This document shows positions 445 to 15,100 of a DNA stretch of 64,000 nt, one piece after another. The DNA lies in the IMG/VR virus record IMGVR_UViG_3300035698_022074, positions 1 to 64,000 of that record; one strand, written 5' to 3'. Under the pieces are notes generated by a model. The model saw only the letters and a program-made list of their open reading frames with translations. It searched no databases and was not told the DNA's origin. A program made the translations under genes and the position numbers. This DNA comes from a virus. Numbering within the stretch: position 1 is the first letter of the stretch; every line of letters starts with the position of its first letter.

Positions 445-531
445 GAAGGTTGACAGAGTGGTAATGTGCCGGCTTGGAAAGTCGGAGCCTGGTTGATACC
501 AGCGCGAGTTCGATTCTCGCACCTTCCTCCA
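445..531 (+). tRNA. tRNA-Ser(GGA), type II, CCA encoded
   Basis: Manual cloverleaf: acceptor ggaaggt/accttcc, long variable arm, anticodon loop cttggaa, T-loop ttcgatt, then tCCA. Confidence 0.7.
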
Positions 532-537
532 TTTTAT

Positions 538-622
538 GCCCGTGTGGTGGAATGTAGACACGCTGCGTTGAGTGCGCAGTTCTTGCAAAGGAGTACAGGT
601 TCAAGTCCTGTCATGGGCACCA
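538..622 (+). tRNA. tRNA-Leu(GAG), type II
   Basis: Acceptor gcccgtg/catgggc, anticodon stem ctgcg/cgcag with loop ttgagtg, long variable arm, T-loop ttcaagt, aCCA. Confidence 0.7.
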
Positions 623-635
623 TTTTATATAGTTT

Positions 636-722
636 GGGTCGTACGGAGGGATGGTTCCCGAGGGGGTCTGTAAAACCCCAGCCTGCAGTGCCGACTAAGT
701 TCAATTCTTAGACGACCCACCA
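636..722 (+). tRNA. tRNA-Tyr(GTA), type II
   Basis: Acceptor gggtcgt/acgaccc, anticodon loop ctgtaaa, long variable arm, T-loop ttcaatt, aCCA. Confidence 0.65.
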
Positions 723-727
723 TTTTT

Positions 728-815
728 GGAAGCGATCCGACCGGCTTGAGGAGCTTGTCTTGAAAACAAGTAGAGGGTCTAACCTTTGAGAGTTCGAATC
801 TCTCCGCTTCCGCCA
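728..815 (+). tRNA. tRNA-Ser(TGA), type II
   Basis: Acceptor ggaagcg/cgcttcc, anticodon stem cttgt/acaag with loop cttgaaa, T-loop ttcgaat, gCCA. Confidence 0.7.
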
Positions 816-819
816 TTTT

Positions 820-895
820 GGTTACTGAGCTCGCAAGGTGCAGAGCGCTAGTCTGAAAAACTAGGGGATCGGTTCAATTCCGATAGTAACCACCA
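820..895 (+). tRNA. tRNA-Phe(GAA)
   Basis: Acceptor ggttact/agtaacc, anticodon stem ctagt/actag with loop ctgaaaa, T-loop ttcaatt, aCCA. Confidence 0.6.
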
Positions 896-899
896 TTTT

Positions 900-986
900 G
901 CCGGGATGATGGAATGTAGACATGCAGCGCTTAGACCGCTGTGCTCCGTGAAGGGCGTGCGGGTTCAAGTCCCGATCTCGGCACCA
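900..986 (+). tRNA. tRNA-Leu(TAG), type II
   Basis: Acceptor gccggga/tctcggc, anticodon stem cagcg/cgctg with loop cttagac, long variable arm, T-loop ttcaagt, aCCA. Confidence 0.65.
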
Positions 987-1040
987 TTTTAACAAAGTTT
1001 GAACAAATAAAGGAATAACAGTAAAATTCTTTAAATCATT

Positions 1041-1118
1041 GGGGAGTCATGTACCAAGGCAAGGCGATGAAGATTTGCAATCTTCGTGAGGTGGGTTCGA
1101 TACCCATACTCTCCACCA
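1041..1118 (+). tRNA. tRNA-Ala(TGC) (G3:U70 present), unusual D region
   Basis: Acceptor ggggagt/actctcc with a G3-U70 pair. Anticodon stem gaaga/tcttc with loop tttgcaa. T-loop ttcgata, aCCA. The D region catgtaccaaggcaaggcga is shared with the Trp tRNA at 9291. Confidence 0.5.
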
Positions 1119-12628: not shown

Positions 12629-12800
12629 CGTTTCTGTAATTTTTCTAAAGAAGATTCCATTTTTGTGACATAGTATAAAGCGACAGATTGAGTGAGTTTT
12701 GACCTCTCTTTGTAAAGTGAAAGTTCGATTCGTTCTCTCTTTAGAGATTTGAAATTAAGGATGTTCTAGTAACTAAAGTCGTCTATGTTACAGATTTGTA

Positions 12801-12862
12801 GGGGTTGCGATGATGAAGTGTGAGTTTTTTTACACATATTCCCGTCGCAACCCCTTTTGTTG
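12801..12862 (+). terminator. Rho-independent terminator
   Basis: 10-bp stem ggggttgcga/tcgcaacccc followed by ttttgttg. Confidence 0.65.
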
Positions 12863-12968
12863 CATAATTACTACTGCTTATACAAATTTAGATTTTTGTG
12901 TATGTTAATTCTGTGAGGCAAAAATGTCAGGTTTTCAAAATGAAAACCTTTAGCAACCGAGCAAAAAC

Positions 12969-13202
12969 ATGAGTAAGGTAAATGAACTTACTAAAACAGT
13001 GCTCGGCGGAGTTTTGTCACCTGATCCTCTGCCAACTTCTATGAAGTTGTATAAACTTTTAAAGATGCCCATAGAAGAGTCTGACGATACTTGTGCATTT
13101 GATGCATTTTCCGAGTCAGAGCACAAAAGAGGTCCCCACAGAACATCAGCTTTGGGTCTCGTATGCAGGTGTAAAAAGTGTAGGTTGTACTGCACCTGGT
13201 AG
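12969..13202 (+). CDS. small Cys-rich protein (77 aa; C-x-C-x2-C-x3-C) ending in TAG, in frame with the release-factor ORF 6 nt downstream
   Basis: ATG start. C-terminus CRCKKCRLYCTW*. TAG at 13200-13202, then AAA ACA ATG (13209) in the same frame. Confidence 0.4.
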   Translation: MSKVNELTKTVLGGVLSPDPLPTSMKLYKLLKMPIEESDDTCAFDAFSESEHKRGPHRTSALGLVCRCKKCRLYCTW

Positions 13203-13208
13203 AAAACA

Positions 13209-13887
13209 ATGTCAACAGTAATAATAGAGATAAGAGCAGGCGAAGGCGGCGATGACGCCAAAGATCTAGTGAACAAGCAGTTTGAAATATACAAGAAGGT
13301 AGCACTTCGGAGGTCATTTTAGCTGCCAGATAGTTTCTAACGGTTCTGGTTACCTATCCCTCAAAATGACTGGTAAAAACGTTCTAGATACCTTCCAGAA
13401 CGAATCTGGGGGCCATCGGTGGCAAAGGATTCCTCCAAATGATAAGAAGGGGCGAGTTCATACGTCAACAATCACTGTTGCTGTACTACGTGAAAAAGTA
13501 CACACGAAAATTGAAATACACGACGATGAGCTTGTATGGAAGATGACACGAGGCTCAGGTCCCGGTGGTCAACATAAGAATAAGACAGACACATGTGTCG
13601 TGTTGACCCATGTTCCTACACGAACAACAGTTAGATGTGACAGCAAATCTCAAGCGCAGAATAAAAAAGACGCATTTGCTGAACTTGAGAGACGTCTAAA
13701 TGATCAAAGGAGTGATAAGATACACTTTCAGCGTAATTCAAAGCGCCGCGAACAAGTAGGAACTGGCATGCGTGCTGACAAAGTCCGTACAATTAGATGT
13801 CAAGACGGTACAGTTAAATGTCACAATTCGGGACGTTCAATGCCACTCAAGAAGTATCTTCGTGGCATACTTCCTACAAAAAAGTAA
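13209..13887 (+). CDS. prfH: PrfH/RF-like peptide-chain release factor (domains 2-4, GGQ motif), two ORFs joined by a prfB-type +1 frameshift at 13317-13323
   Basis: ORF1 MSTVIIEIRAGEGGDDAKDL…RRSF* carries the domain-2 EIRAGxGGDEA motif. Frame +1 continues …SGGHRWQRIP…GRVHTSTITVAVL…GSGPGGQHKNKTDT… with the GGQ motif. The shift site is GGAGG-TCA-TTT-TAG-C, shaped like prfB's AGGGGG-TAT-CTT-TGA-C. Domain 1 is absent, as in PrfH. Confidence 0.7.
13309..13323 (+). promoter_or_regulatory. Programmed +1 ribosomal frameshift site (internal SD GGAGG, 3-nt spacer, slippery UUU U, in-frame UAG, then C)
   Basis: Sequence ggaggtcattttagc. The 0-frame stop is TAG at 13320. The +1 frame is open from 13303 through the GGQ domain. 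Confidence 0.6.
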
Positions 13888-13900
13888 TCTGGAGACAAAG

Positions 13901-14737
13901 ATGAGCAATGTGATCTTGTTTGACATGGACGGAACACTAACACCTTCAAGAAAGAAGGTCGATGAGAAAGTAATTTATATGCTGTATTTGCTTAACCATA
14001 ATAAGAATATTAGAAAAGTAGGTATCATAACAGGTTCTGGTTACAACTACATCGAGGATCAAATGGAGAAGTTCCTAGATCTCTTAATTAGCGATTTGGA
14101 CCCAGAAAAGTTTATTTTACTACCATGCAATGGAACACAGAGCTATGAGTTCTTTGAAGAAGGGCACTTTGGTATTAGTTCTAGTGTTTCTATGCGTGCT
14201 AAACTCGGCGATAAGGCATTTGAACTTTTAATCAAACAGCTCGTCTATCTTCAGCATTCTTTGACGACAGCTTTTCCTGATCTTCCCGTGTCAGGCCATT
14301 TTGTTTCAAATAGAGGTAGTACAATCAACTGGTCGCCTGTTGGAAGGGATGCCTCGTCTGATCTTCGACGAAAATTTGTCAAATACGACAAAGAAAAAGG
14401 TGTTAGAAGCGCAGCTAAAAGAATGATTGAAGACTCACTCAAAACACAGCACGAACTGCTACCTGATTTTGGTGGTTTGACCTCGGGAATTACCGTTGCA
14501 CTTGGCGGCGAAACATCACTGGACATTTATCCAGATGGATGGGACAAAACGTTCCCACTTGATAGATTCAAAGATGATAAAGTCTGGTTCATTGGTGACA
14601 AGTGCCAAGAAAACGGCAACGACAAAGCAATTTACGATAGATTTGTAGAATTCGGTCGTGCATTTGAAACCTCTGGCCCAGAAGAAACAGTTTCAATCGT
14701 ATACAGAAAAATAATGCCTTTTTTGATAAACAACTAA
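13901..14737 (+). CDS. phosphomannomutase, eukaryotic-type (HAD family, PMM)
   Basis: RBS ggag then ATG. N-terminal FDMDGTLT. C-terminal GGETSLDIYPDGWDKTF…FIGDK…NGNDKAIY matches PMM GGQISFDVFPDGWDK…FFGDK…GGNDHEIF. The ORF-track start at 13772 is rejected because it overlaps the release-factor gene. Confidence 0.8.
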   Translation: MSNVILFDMDGTLTPSRKKVDEKVIYMLYLLNHNKNIRKVGIITGSGYNYIEDQMEKFLDLLISDLDPEKFILLPCNGTQSYEFFEEGHFGISSSVSMRAKLGDKAFELLIKQLVYLQHSLTTAFPDLPVSGHFVSNRGSTINWSPVGRDASSDLRRKFVKYDKEKGVRSAAKRMIEDSLKTQHELLPDFGGLTSGITVALGGETSLDIYPDGWDKTFPLDRFKDDKVWFIGDKCQENGNDKAIYDRFVEFGRAFETSGPEETVSIVYRKIMPFLINN

Positions 14738-14938
14738 GTGAAGCACAGTAAACTCTCATAGAGGTTAAATTAGATGTGTTACCAACTTTAGAGACAAATT
14801 CTTCTTGCAAGCAACGAAAGCTTCTGGAAGACCGCATTTAAAACTCTCAACATTTATATCGCGATAGCTCAAATATTAGAGCACATGATTTTTGATCATG
14901 AAGATGGTGGTGAAAGCACACCTCGCGGTACAATTTTT

Positions 14939-15015
14939 GTACCCTTAGCTCAGTCTGGCAGAGCAGCGGCTTCTAACCCCGCAGCGCGTTGGTTCAAATC
15001 CAACAGGGTATACCA
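14939..15015 (+). tRNA. tRNA with ambiguous anticodon: CUA (amber suppressor) by canonical numbering, or Arg(UCU) if the stem is shifted
   Basis: Acceptor gtaccct/agggtat, D arm gctcagtctggcagagc. Anticodon region gcggc-ttctaac-cccgc reads 34-36 as CTA with a C-C mismatch at 31-39. The alternative loop cttctaa reads TCT but leaves only a 3-bp stem. T arm gttgg-ttcaaat-ccaac, aCCA. Confidence 0.5.
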
Positions 15016-15019
15016 TCTT

Positions 15020-15100
15020 GCGGAGTTAGCTCAGTCCGGTAGAGCACTTGAGTATTTATATTCAAGAGGTCAGAGGTTCAAATCCTGCTACTCCGCACCA
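15020..15100 (+). tRNA. Atypical tRNA-like: canonical acceptor and D arm but a 20-nt anticodon arm (8-bp hairpin cttgagta-ttta-tattcaag) and a weak T stem
   Basis: Acceptor gcggagt/actccgc, D arm gctcagtccggtagagc, T-loop ttcaaat, aCCA. The anticodon cannot be assigned. Confidence 0.35.

What the first reader, a model, noticed from the sequence alone, without database searches (positions are those of the whole stretch)
445..15100. Exceptionally large tRNA gene complement with duplicated isoacceptors and odd variants
More than 40 tRNA-like genes lie in about 15 kb. They almost always encode CCA and are followed by a T-run. Duplicates: Phe-GAA x2, Leu-UAG x2, Val-UAC x2, Glu-UUC x2, His-GUG x2 (one with G-1/C73), Gly-UCC x2, Asp-GUC x2 and CAU x3. 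Oddities include a type-I CAA tRNA (2002), a C33 tRNA (8531), several ATCGTAA/ATCGTTA T-loops (9485, 10230, 10783) and an 8-bp-hairpin anticodon arm (15020). The duplicated sets may reflect two tRNA repertoires of different origin.
Basis: seen in the sequence. Interest (0 to 1): 0.6.

Follow-up and report, generated by a model that had tools for sequence, protein, structure and literature searches.

The report
Large-phage tRNA gene island
About 43 tRNA genes packed into 15 kb of an uncultured large tailed phage form a nearly complete private decoding set; such sets are a known habit of very large phages, but this one includes an amber suppressor and several unorthodox tRNA shapes that turn out to recur in many phages.

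Summary
ARAGORN and Rfam together give 40 tRNA genes in 444-15100, and relaxed ARAGORN adds 2-3 more. Three further tRNAs and a tmRNA lie downstream; 31.3-64 kb has none. All are on the + strand, 45 of 46 encode CCA, and about 32 are followed by TTT.

Duplicated isoacceptors are only 57-71% identical. Two independent assemblies reproduce the array at 99% identity, so it is not an assembly artefact.

The window is phage: it has a baseplate wedge gene, and its nearest relatives are uncultured huge phages. The set covers all 20 amino acids and up to 59 of 61 sense codons, plus UAG.

"Two repertoires of different origin" is only weakly supported. There are no two syntenic sets, and only the His pair follows different identity rules.

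The odd tRNAs belong to recurrent classes in phage arrays:
- Long-variable-arm tRNA-Asn: 114 calls in IMG/VR, 39 in 596 Gb of cellular genomes, mostly inside arrays.
- Short-arm tRNA-Leu.
- T loops with a swapped A54-U58 pair.

Also inside the interval:
- A truncated RF1-like gene with a prfB-style +1 frameshift cassette that uses UAG.
- A PTH2 gene with UAG at codon 3, next to the amber suppressor.

Verdict: a new member of a known kind, with unusual side features.

The parts
444..531 (+). tRNA-Ser(GGA), long variable arm, U73, CCA
   Evidence: ARAGORN; Rfam 57.5 bits
538..622 (+). tRNA-Leu(GAG), long arm
   Evidence: 45.7 bits
636..722 (+). tRNA-Tyr(GUA), long arm, aberrant D arm
   Evidence: ARAGORN only; not found by Rfam at E<=10
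728..815 (+). tRNA-Ser(UGA), long arm, G73
   Evidence: relaxed ARAGORN; Rfam tRNA-Sec model 37.6 bits, below its gathering score
820..895 (+). tRNA-Phe(GAA), copy a
   Evidence: 49.9 bits
900..986 (+). tRNA-Leu(UAG), copy a, long arm
   Evidence: 40.9 bits
1041..1118 (+). tRNA-Ala(UGC) with G3:U70; unusual D arm shared with Trp 9291
   Evidence: ARAGORN only
1136..1211 (+). tRNA-Phe(GAA), copy b; 61% identical to copy a
1220..1306 (+). tRNA-Ser(GCU), long arm
1908..1991 (+). tRNA-Leu(UAG), copy b, long arm
   Evidence: 60.6 bits; 89% match to a tRNA in huge phage LR745206
2002..2078 (+). Short-arm (type I) tRNA with anticodon CAA (Leu); 3-bp D stem, 11-nt D loop, A73
   Evidence: 41.8 bits; same architecture as 68 of 142 tRNA-Leu in other phage arrays
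2663..2736 (+). Possible tRNA-Cys(GCA); U73-CCA, weak anticodon stem; low confidence
   Evidence: ARAGORN only at the 80% threshold; minimum-energy fold is not a cloverleaf
2775..2849 (+). tRNA-Val(UAC), copy a, canonical
   Evidence: 68.6 bits
2856..2932 (+). tRNA-Val(UAC), copy b, divergent
   Evidence: ARAGORN; Rfam 23 bits
7102..7192 (+). Long-variable-arm tRNA with anticodon UUU (Lys); A73, Tyr-like D arm; 7/5 acceptor/T stems
   Evidence: Rfam tRNA-Sec model 28.8 bits, below gathering score; similar long-arm Lys tRNAs occur in other phage arrays
7318..7392 (+). tRNA-Glu(UUC), copy a
7473..7547 (+). tRNA-Asn(GUU), short arm, G73
7943..8018 (+). tRNA-Arg(UCU)
8531..8604 (+). tRNA-Val(GAC) with C33
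   Evidence: (63.1 bits)
8611..8685 (+). tRNA-Arg(ACG)
8693..8765 (+). tRNA-Pro(UGG); C1:G72, reduced D arm
   Evidence: ARAGORN only
8772..8847 (+). tRNA-Lys(CUU)
   Evidence: 36.3 bits
9111..9200 (+). Long-variable-arm tRNA with anticodon GUU (Asn); G73, Ser-like D arm
   Evidence: 53.7 bits; member of a class with 114 ARAGORN-confirmed calls in IMG/VR
9206..9286 (+). tRNA-Gly(GCC) with a 12-nt variable region
   Evidence: Rfam 31.7 bits
9291..9368 (+). tRNA-Trp(CCA), G73
   Evidence: ARAGORN only
9385..9480 (+). tRNA relics: two T-arm remnants; 33 nt of this stretch are deleted in a sister strain
9485..9560 (+). tRNA-Glu(CUC), T loop AUCGUAA (A54/U58 swap)
   Evidence: ARAGORN only
9575..9650 (+). 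tRNA-Gln(CUG)
9657..9732 (+). tRNA-Gly(UCC), copy a, canonical
   Evidence: 70 bits
9808..9883 (+). tRNA-His(GUG), copy a, A73
9980..10054 (+). tRNA-Thr(UGU)
10061..10135 (+). tRNA-Glu(UUC), copy b
10149..10225 (+). tRNA-His(GUG), copy b; encoded G-1 (10149) opposite C73; C37
   Evidence: Rfam 41.1 bits; relaxed ARAGORN; flanks
10230..10305 (+). tRNA-Ile(GAU), T loop AUCGUUA
   Evidence: ARAGORN only
10312..10387 (+). tRNA-Lys(UUU), T loop AUCGUUG
10394..10465 (+). Initiator-like tRNA(CAU): C1xA72 mismatch, A73, GG/CC next to the anticodon loop
   Evidence: Rfam 30.6 bits, 10394-10462; fold
10783..10857 (+). tRNA-Asp(GUC), copy a, T loop AUCGUAA
11335..11406 (+). tRNA-Gly(UCC), copy b; truncated D arm, U73
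   Evidence: ARAGORN at the 90% threshold; cloverleaf-like minimum-energy fold
11413..11488 (+). tRNA-Asp(GUC), copy b, U37
11498..11569 (+). Divergent tRNA(CAU)
   Evidence: Rfam 27.7 bits
11864..11939 (+). tRNA-Gln(UUG)
13209..13887 (+). Release-factor gene without domain 1, nearest RF1, read in two frames. The +1 frameshift cassette CGG AGG TCA TTT TAG C lies at 13308-13323. The stop-codon recognition tripeptide is PPN.
   Evidence: Pfam; NCBIfam; sequence; same cassette in homologues
14858..14933 (+). Degenerate tRNA-like gene: UUU anticodon, T loop UGAAAGC, 3' CAA (CCA in a sister strain)
   Evidence: Rfam 44.8 bits; fold z-score -4.0
14939..15015 (+). Amber-suppressor tRNA(CUA), A73, G1:U72
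   Evidence: ARAGORN; Rfam 56.7 bits
15020..15100 (+). tRNA-like gene with an expanded anticodon arm (8-bp hairpin, or an 8-10-nt loop UAUUUAUA)
   Evidence: Rfam 38.7 bits; fold
15120..15464 (+). PTH2-type peptidyl-tRNA hydrolase gene. ATG at 15120 follows AAGGAA; TAG is in frame at codon 3 (15126-15128); the next canonical start is 84 codons downstream.
24523..24597 (+). tRNA-Arg(CCU), outside the flagged interval
   Evidence: 68.6 bits
24603..24695 (+). tRNA relic of long-arm length, poorly folding
   Evidence: Rfam 31 bits; fold z-score +1.1
25243..25890 (+). TilS-like lysidine synthetase N domain, 13 nt upstream of tRNA(CAU) 25904
   Evidence: Pfam; NCBIfam TIGR02432, 129.5 bits against a cutoff of 93.6
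25904..25980 (+). tRNA(CAU), probable tRNA-Ile2 substrate of the adjacent TilS
   Evidence: 57.1 bits; adjacency
30901..31268 (+). tmRNA, tag peptide ANNNSHFQTALAA
   Evidence: ARAGORN; Rfam 119.8 bits

Best explanation
This is the tRNA gene island of a large, uncultured tailed phage with a contractile-tail baseplate gene.

ABOUT 43 tRNA GENES lie head to tail on one strand. Within clusters they are separated mostly by 4-14 nt of T-rich spacer. Each encodes its own CCA. Together they form an almost complete decoding set tuned to the phage's own A/T-rich codon usage: all 20 amino acids if the weak Cys gene is real, up to 59 of 61 sense codons, and the stop codon UAG.

INFERRED MECHANISM.
1. The clusters are transcribed as multi-tRNA precursors.
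2. Host RNase P and 3' nucleases cut them. No CCA-adding step is needed.
3. Host aminoacyl-tRNA synthetases charge them; the window encodes no synthetase.
4. They keep phage translation running when the host tRNA pool is mismatched, run down or attacked by tRNA-cleaving defence nucleases.

Second copies partly serve dosage for heavily used codons. They are also partly structurally deviant versions: altered anticodon loops, a swapped T-loop pair, or gain or loss of the long variable arm. Such versions could escape enzymes that recognise the host form.

The island turns over quickly through recombination between the conserved T-loop motifs. This leaves relics and strain-to-strain indels.

It is embedded in a wider translation module: an RF1-like factor, PTH2, TilS next to its probable CAU tRNA substrate, and a tmRNA.

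SHOWN: the genes, their order and strand, CCA, anticodon coverage, the codon-usage match, phage context, strain indels, and recurrence of the odd classes.
INFERRED: transcription, processing, charging, and any role in defence evasion.
For: GENES AND DENSITY. 37 (ARAGORN) + 3 (Rfam) + 2-3 (relaxed ARAGORN) tRNA genes lie in 14.7 kb, against none in 31.3-64 kb. All are on the + strand with CCA and T-rich spacers.

PHAGE CONTEXT.
- Baseplate wedge family phrog_219 at 54177-56024.
- Best tblastn hits of that gene, of PrkA and of the helicase are uncultured 480-640 kb phages, Flavobacterium phages, a Microcystis phage, Bacillus phage G and similar.
- At least 147 IMG/VR contigs carry a PrkA at 59-65% identity, many with the same PrkA-tmRNA arrangement.

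NOT AN ARTEFACT. Two public assemblies reproduce 3400-20500 at 98.9-99.6% identity.

CODON MATCH. The only uncovered sense codons are CGG and UUA. CGG is almost unused by the phage ORFs (0.6 per 1000). Duplicated anticodons read abundant codon families for Asp, Glu, Lys, Asn, Phe, Val, Leu and Gly.

TURNOVER. Three indels separate the strains, and two of them have both ends in GGTTCRA T-loop motifs. There are relics at 9385-9480 and 24603.

RECURRENCE OF DEVIANT FORMS IN OTHER PHAGE ARRAYS.
Cellular genomes give only 39, and at least 25 of those sit in dense arrays on metagenome-assembled-genome (MAG) contigs.
- Short-arm Leu: 68 of 142.
- A54+U58 T loop: 41 of 1274 and 7 of 595.
- Duplicated anticodons: 35 of 51 dense arrays.

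LITERATURE.
- Huge phages encode up to 67 tRNAs, plus release factors and tmRNAs (PMC7162821).
- Phage tRNAs are proposed or shown to evade tRNA-targeting defences (PMC10264068, PMC11464382, PMC11555353; titles and abstracts as listed).
Against: - No expression, processing or charging data exist.
- No host is known, so codon compensation relative to the host could not be tested.
- About 9 genes are found by ARAGORN only and are invisible to the Rfam tRNA model. Some of them, and 14858, 15020 and 24603, may be non-functional.
- The link between duplication and codon demand is weak: His is duplicated at 24 per 1000, while Thr, Ala and Ile are single at 57-71 per 1000.
- No promoter or terminator signal above shuffled background was found.
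- Defence evasion by the deviant forms is conjecture. No anticodon nuclease or tRNA repair enzyme is encoded in the window.
Confidence: 0.78

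Rival explanations
1. Two repertoires of different origin: the phage merged two tRNA sets acquired from different hosts or phages, for example to serve two host types.
For: The two His genes follow different identity rules: 9808 has A73, and 10150 has an encoded G-1 opposite C73. Duplicates are old, at 55-71% identity. One Leu-UAG copy is 89-94% identical to tRNAs of unrelated phages.
Against: Only about 10 anticodons are duplicated. Copies are often adjacent and there is no repeated gene order. The same kinds of pairs, such as short plus long-arm Asn, recur in many unrelated phage arrays. 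That points to a recurring pattern rather than an accident of merger. Origin cannot be resolved from 75-nt sequences.
Confidence: 0.15
2. Neutral birth-and-death: the canonical copies work, and the deviant copies are decaying pseudogenes produced by duplication and T-loop recombination, with no function of their own.
For: There are clear relics (9385-9480, 24603) and indels between 99%-identical strains. In the ENA and JGI assemblies the suppressor and the 15020 gene are fused into a chimera with non-pairing acceptor strands. Nine genes escape the Rfam model. 14858 has lost CCA in this strain.
Against: The deviant genes keep paired acceptor stems, CCA, G53/C61 and intact anticodon loops. The T-loop change is compensated: A54 goes with U58 in 4 of 4 cases here and 41 of 52 elsewhere. 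Long-arm Asn and short-arm Leu are conserved classes across hundreds of phage contigs. Decay would not produce that.
Confidence: 0.3
3. Code-change or UAG-sensing module: the important part of the island is the amber suppressor. Together with the RF1-like factor and UAG-containing genes, it reprogrammes or senses UAG decoding during infection, as in stop-codon-recoded phages.
For: - tRNA(CUA) scores 56.7 bits.
- About 105 nt downstream, the PTH2 gene has a good Shine-Dalgarno sequence, ATG, then UAG at codon 3, and no other start for 84 codons.
- The RF1-like gene 1 kb upstream needs a +1 shift at UUU UAG.
- TAG is the rarest stop codon here (7 of 58 ORFs).
- Code-change modules made of a suppressor tRNA and a release factor are described in recoded phages, and so are standard-code relatives that have acquired a suppressor (bioRxiv 10.1101/2021.08.26.457843).
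Against: - The 64-kb window is fully readable in the standard code. Treating TAG as sense raises ORF coverage no more than treating TGA or TAA as sense. The visible structural genes have no in-frame TAG.
- Only one gene looks dependent on readthrough.
- An RF1-type factor would oppose UAG suppression.
- The sister assemblies keep the TAG in PTH2 but carry a broken suppressor.
- In homologous RF genes the cassette stop is usually TGA, and suppressors are rarely nearby.
Confidence: 0.3
4. Assembly artefact, or a cellular tRNA array rather than a phage one.
For: None specific. Some matching long-arm Asn arrays sit in contigs labelled as bacterial or archaeal MAGs.
Against: Independent ENA and JGI contigs agree at 99%, and no two tRNAs are more than 75% identical. 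The window has a baseplate gene, its relatives are phages, and one strand codes for 85% of it.
Confidence: 0.02

Closest known systems
tRNA arrays and translation gene sets of huge phages (Al-Shayeb et al. 2020, PMC7162821); from my own knowledge also the tRNA clusters of T4, T5, KVP40 and mycobacteriophage Bxz1
   Same: Dense arrays of tRNA genes in a large tailed phage. tRNA sequences are distinct from known ones. A tmRNA and a release factor occur together with the array. The number is within the published range of up to 67.
   Different: No close relative among 50,697 deposited phage genomes. No aminoacyl-tRNA synthetase in the visible 64 kb. An unusually high share of structurally deviant tRNAs. 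Almost every sense codon is covered from a single 15-kb block.
Phage tRNAs that evade tRNA-targeting defences (PMC10264068; T5 tRNA-Lys versus PARIS, PMC11464382; T5 tRNA-Tyr versus retron effectors, PMC11555353)
   Same: Second copies differ in the anticodon loop (C33, C37, U37) and in body architecture. That is the kind of change proposed to block nuclease recognition.
   Different: Nothing here was tested. The deviations include changes well outside the anticodon loop (long variable arm on Asn and Lys, loss of the arm in Leu, A54-U58 swap). I found no description of these in the literature searched.
Code-change modules of stop-codon-recoded phages (Borges et al., bioRxiv 10.1101/2021.08.26.457843)
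   Same: A suppressor tRNA and a release-factor gene lie close together, themselves written in the standard code. TAG is a rare stop.
   Different: There is no widespread in-frame TAG in the window. The factor is RF1-like, whereas that paper reports RF1 in TGA-recoded phages, so an RF1-like factor does not fit a TAG code change. Only one candidate readthrough gene was found.
prfB (RF2) autoregulatory +1 programmed frameshift
   Same: The cassette layout is the same: a Shine-Dalgarno-like GGAGG, a 3-nt spacer, a slippery YUU codon, an in-frame stop, then C. It is conserved in at least 44 homologues.
   Different: The host gene is a domain-1-less, RF1-like factor with a PPN/PPT tripeptide, not SPF. 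The site is at codon 37 in domain 2, not codon 26 in domain 1. The stop is UAG here and in 7 of the 80 IMG/VR homologue loci examined. The literature says UAG is not seen in prfB and that no RF1 counterpart is known (PMC12421855; PMC5009743).
allo-tRNAs and tRNA-Sec-like tRNAs with long variable arms and unexpected anticodons (Mukai et al. 2017, PMC5389517)
   Same: A long variable arm combined with anticodons that normally belong to short-arm tRNAs. Weak hits to the tRNA-Sec model.
   Different: 7102 and 9111 have the ordinary 7/5 acceptor/T-stem layout, not 8/4 or 9/3. 9111 carries GUU plus G73, which is the Asn identity set (PMC9976931).

Membership tests
tRNA (Rfam RF00005) | Score at or above the 29-bit gathering threshold of the covariance model | tested here: met
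   31 genes in the interval pass. About 11 others fail and rest on ARAGORN, CCA and their position in the array.
tRNA (functional gene) | Mature, aminoacylated transcript | not testable with these tools
   No expression data are available.
Phage tRNA array / huge-phage translation island | Many tRNA genes clustered in a genome that encodes virion proteins | tested here: met
   42-43 tRNAs in 14.7 kb. Baseplate wedge family phrog_219 and phage-only relatives of that gene.
Phage tRNA array / huge-phage translation island | Genome longer than 200 kb (huge or jumbo phage) | not testable with these tools
   Only 64 kb is visible. The ENA contig places at least 57 kb upstream of the window start, which together with the 64-kb window gives at least about 121 kb. 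Related IMG/VR contigs reach 293 kb.
Stop-codon-recoded phage (TAG as sense, code 15) | Low coding density in the standard code that is rescued by reading TAG as sense | tested here: not met
   85% + strand ORF coverage in the standard code. The gain from TAG as sense (89%) is smaller than from TGA or TAA as sense.
Stop-codon-recoded phage (TAG as sense, code 15) | Suppressor tRNA with anticodon CUA | tested here: met
   14939-15015, 56.7 bits.
Stop-codon-recoded phage (TAG as sense, code 15) | In-frame TAG in many late or structural genes | tested here: not met
   Only PTH2 (15126) qualifies within 64 kb. The rest of the genome is unseen.
allo-tRNA | 12-bp acceptor branch arranged 8/4 or 9/3 | tested here: not met
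   7102 and 9111 fold as 7/5.
tRNA-Sec (RF01852) | Gathering score of 47 bits and a UCA anticodon | tested here: not met
   728 scores 37.6 bits and 7102 scores 28.8 bits; their anticodons are UGA and UUU.
Long-variable-arm tRNA-Asn of phage arrays (class defined here) | GUU anticodon, G73-CCA, variable region of at least 12 nt, 7/5 stems, location in a tRNA array | tested here: met
   9111 fits. There are 114 further ARAGORN-confirmed calls in IMG/VR. Cellular genomes give 39, mostly inside arrays.
Release factor 1 (prfA equivalog) | NCBIfam score above the cutoff, full length with domain 1, PxT tripeptide | tested here: not met
   185 bits against a cutoff of 400. The protein starts at RF1 profile position about 105. 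The tripeptide is PPN.
Release factor H (prfH) | NCBIfam TIGR03072 score above the cutoff | tested here: not met
   72 bits against a cutoff of 166.65.
prfB-type +1 programmed frameshift | Shine-Dalgarno-like element, 3-nt spacer, slippery YUU, in-frame stop, with the reading frame continuing in +1 | tested here: met
   GGAGG TCA TTT TAG C at 13309-13323, with the ORF continuing in +1. The cassette is conserved in homologues.
prfB-type +1 programmed frameshift | Frameshifting occurs and responds to release-factor level | not testable with these tools
   Needs a reporter assay.

The most novel reading that the evidence does not exclude
Large phages carry private structural classes of tRNA that cellular genomes essentially lack: tRNA-Asn and tRNA-Lys with an added long variable arm, tRNA-Leu without one, and T loops with a swapped A54-U58 pair. 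These evolved so that phage tRNAs escape host tRNA-cleaving defences, or are handled only by phage factors. In this phage the island is also wired to a UAG-sensing circuit: an amber suppressor, an RF1-like factor made only through a UUU-UAG +1 frameshift, and a peptidyl-tRNA hydrolase made only by UAG readthrough.
Probability: 0.3. Interest if true: 0.8.

Novelty: new member of a known kind. Interest (0 to 1): 0.52.

Why it matters
The array itself adds one more example, from an unsampled phage lineage, to the known rule that very large phages bring their own tRNAs.

Its value lies in the details, which are directly testable.
- It holds, side by side, canonical and deviant copies of the same isoacceptor. 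This is a natural experiment for the idea that phage tRNAs are shaped by host tRNA-targeting immunity.
- Following its oddities outward showed that long-arm tRNA-Asn and short-arm tRNA-Leu are widespread in phage arrays. Long-arm tRNA-Asn is nearly absent from 185,579 cellular genomes. This bears on how synthetases and nucleases tell tRNA classes apart.
- The same interval contains a UAG-based analogue of the classic RF2 frameshift, in an RF1-like gene. Recent surveys state that this has not been observed.

Tried and rejected
SEARCHES FOR THE SOURCE AND FOR RELATIVES.
- Near-identity DNA search of 1-16000 against deposited phages found only 47-74 bp tRNA matches.
- Exact-protein look-ups for PrkA, the 184-aa ORF and the 304-aa ORF were not on record. 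The source strain itself is therefore not in the collection, and the 57 kb upstream on the ENA contig could not be read.
- Relatives of the phosphomannomutase-like (PMM) and vault-like genes in IMG/VR: none. No moderately related copy of this particular array was obtained, so no covariation test of individual odd tRNAs could be made.

SIGNAL SCANS.
- The promoter and terminator scan gave counts within or barely above shuffled expectation.

TAG RECODING.
- Rejected for the visible 64 kb.
- Backup stops after TAG-terminated genes show no signal.

IDEAS TESTED AND DROPPED.
- That the frameshift stop codon matches a nearby suppressor's codon: only 3 loci have suppressors and 2 of 3 match, which is not significant.
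- Duplication explained by codon demand: only a loose tendency.
- tRNA-Sec and allo-tRNA identity for the long-arm tRNAs: rejected.

ASSIGNMENTS KEPT AT LOW CONFIDENCE.
- The Cys candidate at 2663 and the relic at 24603.

LITERATURE.
- Searches for a prior description of long-arm tRNA-Asn or short-arm tRNA-Leu in phages found none. This is not proof of absence.

Full report
1. THE OBSERVATION

ARAGORN with default settings reports 39 tRNA genes and one tmRNA in the window, every one on the + strand. Thirty-seven of the tRNAs fall between 444 and 15015. Rfam at its curated thresholds reports 33 tRNA hits and the tmRNA. In the flagged interval Rfam adds three genes that ARAGORN misses: 10150, 14858 and 15020. 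Lowering ARAGORN's threshold adds Ser-UGA at 728 (also 37.6 bits on the Rfam tRNA-Sec model), Gly-UCC at 11335 and a weak Cys-GCA candidate at 2663. The interval therefore holds 42 credible tRNA genes plus one doubtful one in 14.7 kb.

Three more tRNA-like genes (24523, 24603, 25904) and the tmRNA (30901-31268) lie downstream. The second half of the window (31.3-64 kb) has none, which serves as an internal control.

Forty-five of the 46 tRNA-like genes encode CCA, and about 32 are followed at once by TTT or TTTT. These runs are the 4-6 nt spacers between neighbouring genes, not terminators.

Their copies are only 55-71% identical, and no pair of tRNAs in the window exceeds 75%.
- A short-arm CAA tRNA at 2002.
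- C33 at 8531.
- AUCGUAA/AUCGUUA T loops at 9485, 10230, 10783 and also 10312.
- An 8-bp anticodon hairpin at 15020.

About nine genes are seen only by ARAGORN and are invisible to the general Rfam tRNA model even at E<=10. They still end in CCA and sit in register in the array.

2. NOT AN ARTEFACT, AND IT IS A PHAGE

A protein from the interval is on record in two public assemblies. These are an ENA contig of 77.5 kb and a JGI contig of 44 kb. Both match window 3400-20500 at 98.9-99.6% identity.

ORFs of at least 100 codons on the + strand cover 85% of the window in the standard code. It encodes a baseplate wedge protein (PHROG family phrog_219). The nearest tblastn matches of that protein are an uncultured 484-kb phage, Flavobacterium phages and a Microcystis phage. 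PrkA and a helicase point to uncultured 600-kb phages, Thermus phages, Bacillus phage G and others at 30-36% identity. No deposited phage genome shares DNA with the array beyond single tRNAs.

IMG/VR holds at least 147 contigs, up to 293 kb long, with a PrkA at 59-65% identity. Many have a tmRNA about 5 kb downstream, as here. The source is therefore an unsampled lineage of large aquatic tailed phages.

3. WHAT THE SET DECODES

There are 32 distinct anticodons. They cover all 20 amino acids if the Cys candidate is real, and otherwise 19.

With ordinary wobble, and four-way reading by U34 in the Pro, Thr and Ala boxes, only UUA and CGG lack a reader. AUA would be read by the CAU tRNA at 25904, which lies 13 nt after a TilS lysidine synthetase gene.

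In 15,835 codons of the window's ORFs, CGG is nearly absent (0.6 per 1000), while UUA is used (12.8 per 1000). Duplicated anticodons mostly read abundant families (Asp, Glu, Lys, Asn, Phe, Val, Leu, Gly). The correlation is loose, however: His is duplicated, while Thr, Ala and Ile are not.

Of the three CAU genes, 10394-10465 has the initiator hallmarks: a C1xA72 mismatch, A73, and G-C pairs next to the anticodon loop.

4. THE 'TWO REPERTOIRES' IDEA

I found no second syntenic set. Duplicates are scattered and often adjacent. What stands out is that in about half of the families one copy is canonical and the other strongly deviant:

| Family | Rfam score, copy 1 (bits) | Rfam score, copy 2 (bits) |
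|---|---|---|
| Val-UAC | 68.6 | 23 |
| Gly-UCC | 70 | not detected |
| Leu-UAG | 60.6 | 40.9 |
| His-GUG | 57.1 | 41.1 |

Only the His pair follows different identity rules. 10150 has an encoded G-1 opposite C73, the usual bacterial form. 9808 has A73. From general knowledge, A73 without a paired G-1 is the form used by a clade of Alphaproteobacteria and by eukaryotes. This is the best single argument for mixed ancestry or mixed host use, but it is only one pair.

5. THE ODD TRNAS ARE MEMBERS OF RECURRENT CLASSES IN PHAGE ARRAYS

9111 has GUU, G73 and a Ser-like D arm. 7102 has UUU, A73 and a Tyr-like D arm. Both have ordinary 7/5 stems, so they are not allo-tRNAs or tRNA-Sec.

I searched IMG/VR for a pattern requiring a GUU anticodon loop, 22-29 nt to the T loop, and G73-CCA.
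- ARAGORN made 114 calls of 83-92 nt tRNA-Asn(GUU) with a long arm in them.
- Most have the U1:A72 and G73 of bacterial tRNA-Asn.
- Most lie inside dense arrays on large contigs.

The same pattern in one genome each of 185,579 bacterial and archaeal species (596 Gb) gave 106 raw matches. Only 39 are such tRNAs, and at least 25 of those lie in arrays of 7-31 tRNAs on MAG contigs. The class is therefore essentially confined to phage-type arrays. Asparagine identity rests on the anticodon plus G73 (PMC9976931), so these are probably charged with Asn. For 9111, whose body also looks Ser-like, this is an inference.

The same loci showed further recurrent deviations:
- Long-arm versions of Lys, Thr, Cys and Ile-UAU tRNAs.
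- A bimodal length distribution for tRNA-Leu. Sixty-eight of 142 are 74-79 nt, with a 3-bp D stem, an 11-nt D loop and A73. That is the architecture of window 2002.
- The A54/U58 T loop, at 3.2% and 1.2% in two sets of phage arrays against 10% here. A54 is accompanied by U58 in 41 of 52 cases, so the reverse-Hoogsteen pair is swapped rather than broken.
- Non-U33 in about 4% of tRNAs, and a pyrimidine at position 37 in about 2%.
- Duplicated anticodons in 35 of 51 dense arrays.

Literature searches gave no description of long-arm Asn or short-arm Leu in phages. That is not proof that none exists.

6. TURNOVER

The 99%-identical strain differs from the window by three indels inside the array.
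- An 87-nt tRNA-like insert after 9200.
- A 33-nt deletion inside the relic at 9402-9473.
- An 84-nt deletion that fuses the 5' part of the suppressor (14939) to the 3' part of 15020. The resulting chimera has acceptor strands that cannot pair.

The two deletions begin and end in the GGTTCRA T-loop motif. Conversely, 14858 has CCA in that strain but CAA here. Together with the relic at 24603, which folds worse than shuffled sequence, this shows rapid birth and death by recombination between T loops.

7. MOST LIKELY MECHANISM

Shown:
- A co-oriented, tightly spaced, CCA-encoding and almost complete tRNA set in a phage.
- A match to the phage's own codon usage.
- Neighbouring translation genes: an RF-like factor, PTH2, TilS and a tmRNA.

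Inferred:
- Polycistronic transcription.
- Processing by host RNase P and 3' nucleases.
- Charging by host synthetases, since the window encodes none.
- A role in keeping phage translation independent of a mismatched, depleted or attacked host tRNA pool.

That phage tRNAs can neutralise tRNA-cleaving defences is proposed or shown for other phages (PMC10264068, PMC11464382, PMC11555353; abstracts). That the deviant copies here do so is a hypothesis. I rate it at roughly one in three.

The main rival for the deviant copies is neutral decay. Against it stand the compensated T-loop swap, the intact stems and CCA, and the conservation of the classes across hundreds of contigs.

8. THE UAG-RELATED GENES INSIDE THE INTERVAL

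The suppressor. 14939-15015 is a well-formed tRNA with anticodon CUA (56.7 bits).

PTH2. Twenty nucleotides after the next tRNA, a PTH2 peptidyl-tRNA hydrolase gene (Pfam E = 2e-12) begins AAGGAA-N6-ATG TCT TAG. The frame then stays open for 111 codons with no ATG, GTG or TTG for the first 84. Either the product depends on UAG readthrough, or on reinitiation, or the gene was recently knocked out. The sister strain keeps the TAG while carrying the broken suppressor, which weakens the readthrough reading.

The release-factor gene. One kilobase upstream, 13209-13887 encodes a release factor without domain 1.
- Its scores on the NCBIfam models are RF1 185 bits, RF2 121 bits and PrfH 72 bits, all below their cutoffs.
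- Its reading frame breaks at CGG AGG TCA TTT TAG C. This has the layout of the prfB frameshift site, but with UAG.

Among the best 80 of 358 IMG/VR homologue loci:

| State of the homologue gene | Loci |
|---|---|
| +1 cassette with CTT TGA | 37 |
| +1 cassette with CTT TAG | 7 |
| Dubious TTT TAA | 1 |
| Uninterrupted | 9 |
| In-frame stops in the same frame (probably recoded phages) | 13 |
| Unresolved | 13 |

A bacterial-looking contig carries the cassette as well. Forty-five of the 80 loci have tRNAs within 10 kb, up to 40 of them.

A 2025 survey states that programmed frameshifting is not found in prfA and that TAG is not detected in the prfB motif (PMC12421855). A 2016 review says the RF1/UAG counterpart is unknown (PMC5009743).

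The recognition tripeptide (PPT or PPN) does not track the cassette's stop codon. Whether the shift is autoregulatory or senses the host's release factors is therefore open.

The window as a whole is not TAG-recoded.

9. COMPARISON AND VERDICT

As an object, this is a phage tRNA island of the kind described for huge phages, which encode up to 67 tRNAs together with release factors and tmRNAs (PMC7162821). It is a new member of a known kind, from an unsampled lineage.

It is not a recoded phage as far as can be seen. Its long-arm tRNAs are not allo-tRNAs. Its release factor is not a member of the RF1, RF2 or PrfH equivalogs.

A specialist's interest lies in the side features: class-switched tRNAs that are nearly phage-specific, and a UAG version of the RF2-type frameshift. 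I score overall interest at about 0.5. The most novel reading has a probability of about 0.3.

Noticed in passing
window 13209-13887 (cassette 13308-13323); L081, L082, L086, L089, L315-L394: A domain-1-less, RF1-like release-factor gene needs a +1 frameshift at GGAGG TCA TTT TAG C. The same cassette, usually CTT TGA and sometimes CTT TAG, is conserved in at least 44 of the 80 IMG/VR homologue loci examined and in one bacterial-looking contig. Published surveys say no such frameshift is known for RF1-type genes or with UAG.
   Followed up: partly
window 15108-15464: A PTH2 peptidyl-tRNA hydrolase gene starts AAGGAA-N6-ATG TCT TAG and has no other start codon for 84 codons. It lies about 105 nt downstream of the amber-suppressor tRNA. 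The layout also resembles a two-codon minigene placed in front of a peptidyl-tRNA hydrolase.
   Followed up: partly
window 3979-6666: An 895-aa full-length homologue of the eukaryotic major vault protein (Pfam MVP shoulder and vault repeat; PDB MVP chains at E = 2e-15) sits in the middle of the tRNA array, in a stretch of higher G+C (48% against about 40%). Thousands of homologues at about 50% identity come mostly from Myxococcota, which may hint at the host.
   Followed up: partly
window 25243-25980: A TilS lysidine synthetase N-domain gene ends 13 nt before a canonical tRNA(CAU). This looks like an enzyme-substrate pair for reading AUA.
   Followed up: partly
window 19904-24417 and 30901-31268; L001-L080: A DUF444 (YeaH) / SpoVR / PrkA triad is followed a few kb later by a one-piece tmRNA. 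The PrkA-tmRNA arrangement recurs in many IMG/VR contigs, with related tag peptides (ANNN.HF..., ANDDF...).
   Followed up: partly
window 1048-1067 and 9298-9317: tRNA-Ala and tRNA-Trp, otherwise unrelated, share an almost identical unusual D-arm segment (CATGTACCAAGGCAAGGCGA and CATGTTCCAAGGCAAGGCGA). This suggests gene conversion or a common recognition element.
   Followed up: no
L084/L085 compared with window 9200, 9420-9452 and 15002-15074: A 99%-identical strain differs by three indels in the array, two of them bounded by T-loop motifs. One of these fuses the suppressor tRNA with its neighbour into a non-pairing chimera.
   Followed up: yes
L209-L314 (GTDB contigs): Contigs filed under bacterial and archaeal MAGs (including Nitrosotalea, Saccharibacteria, Heimdallarchaeota and Planctomycetota) carry arrays of 7-31 tRNAs within 8 kb that include long-arm tRNA-Asn. 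They are probably phage contigs binned with cellular genomes.
   Followed up: no
L315, L318, L325, L328, L329, L333 and other RF loci: Homologous release-factor genes with one or two in-frame stop codons in the same frame (TGA in L325). These are probably phages that read a stop codon as sense.
   Followed up: no
window 16554-17918 and 11993-12628: A SpoT/RelA-type HD domain protein and a PP2C-type phosphatase lie next to the array. They add stress-signalling genes to the translation module.
   Followed up: no
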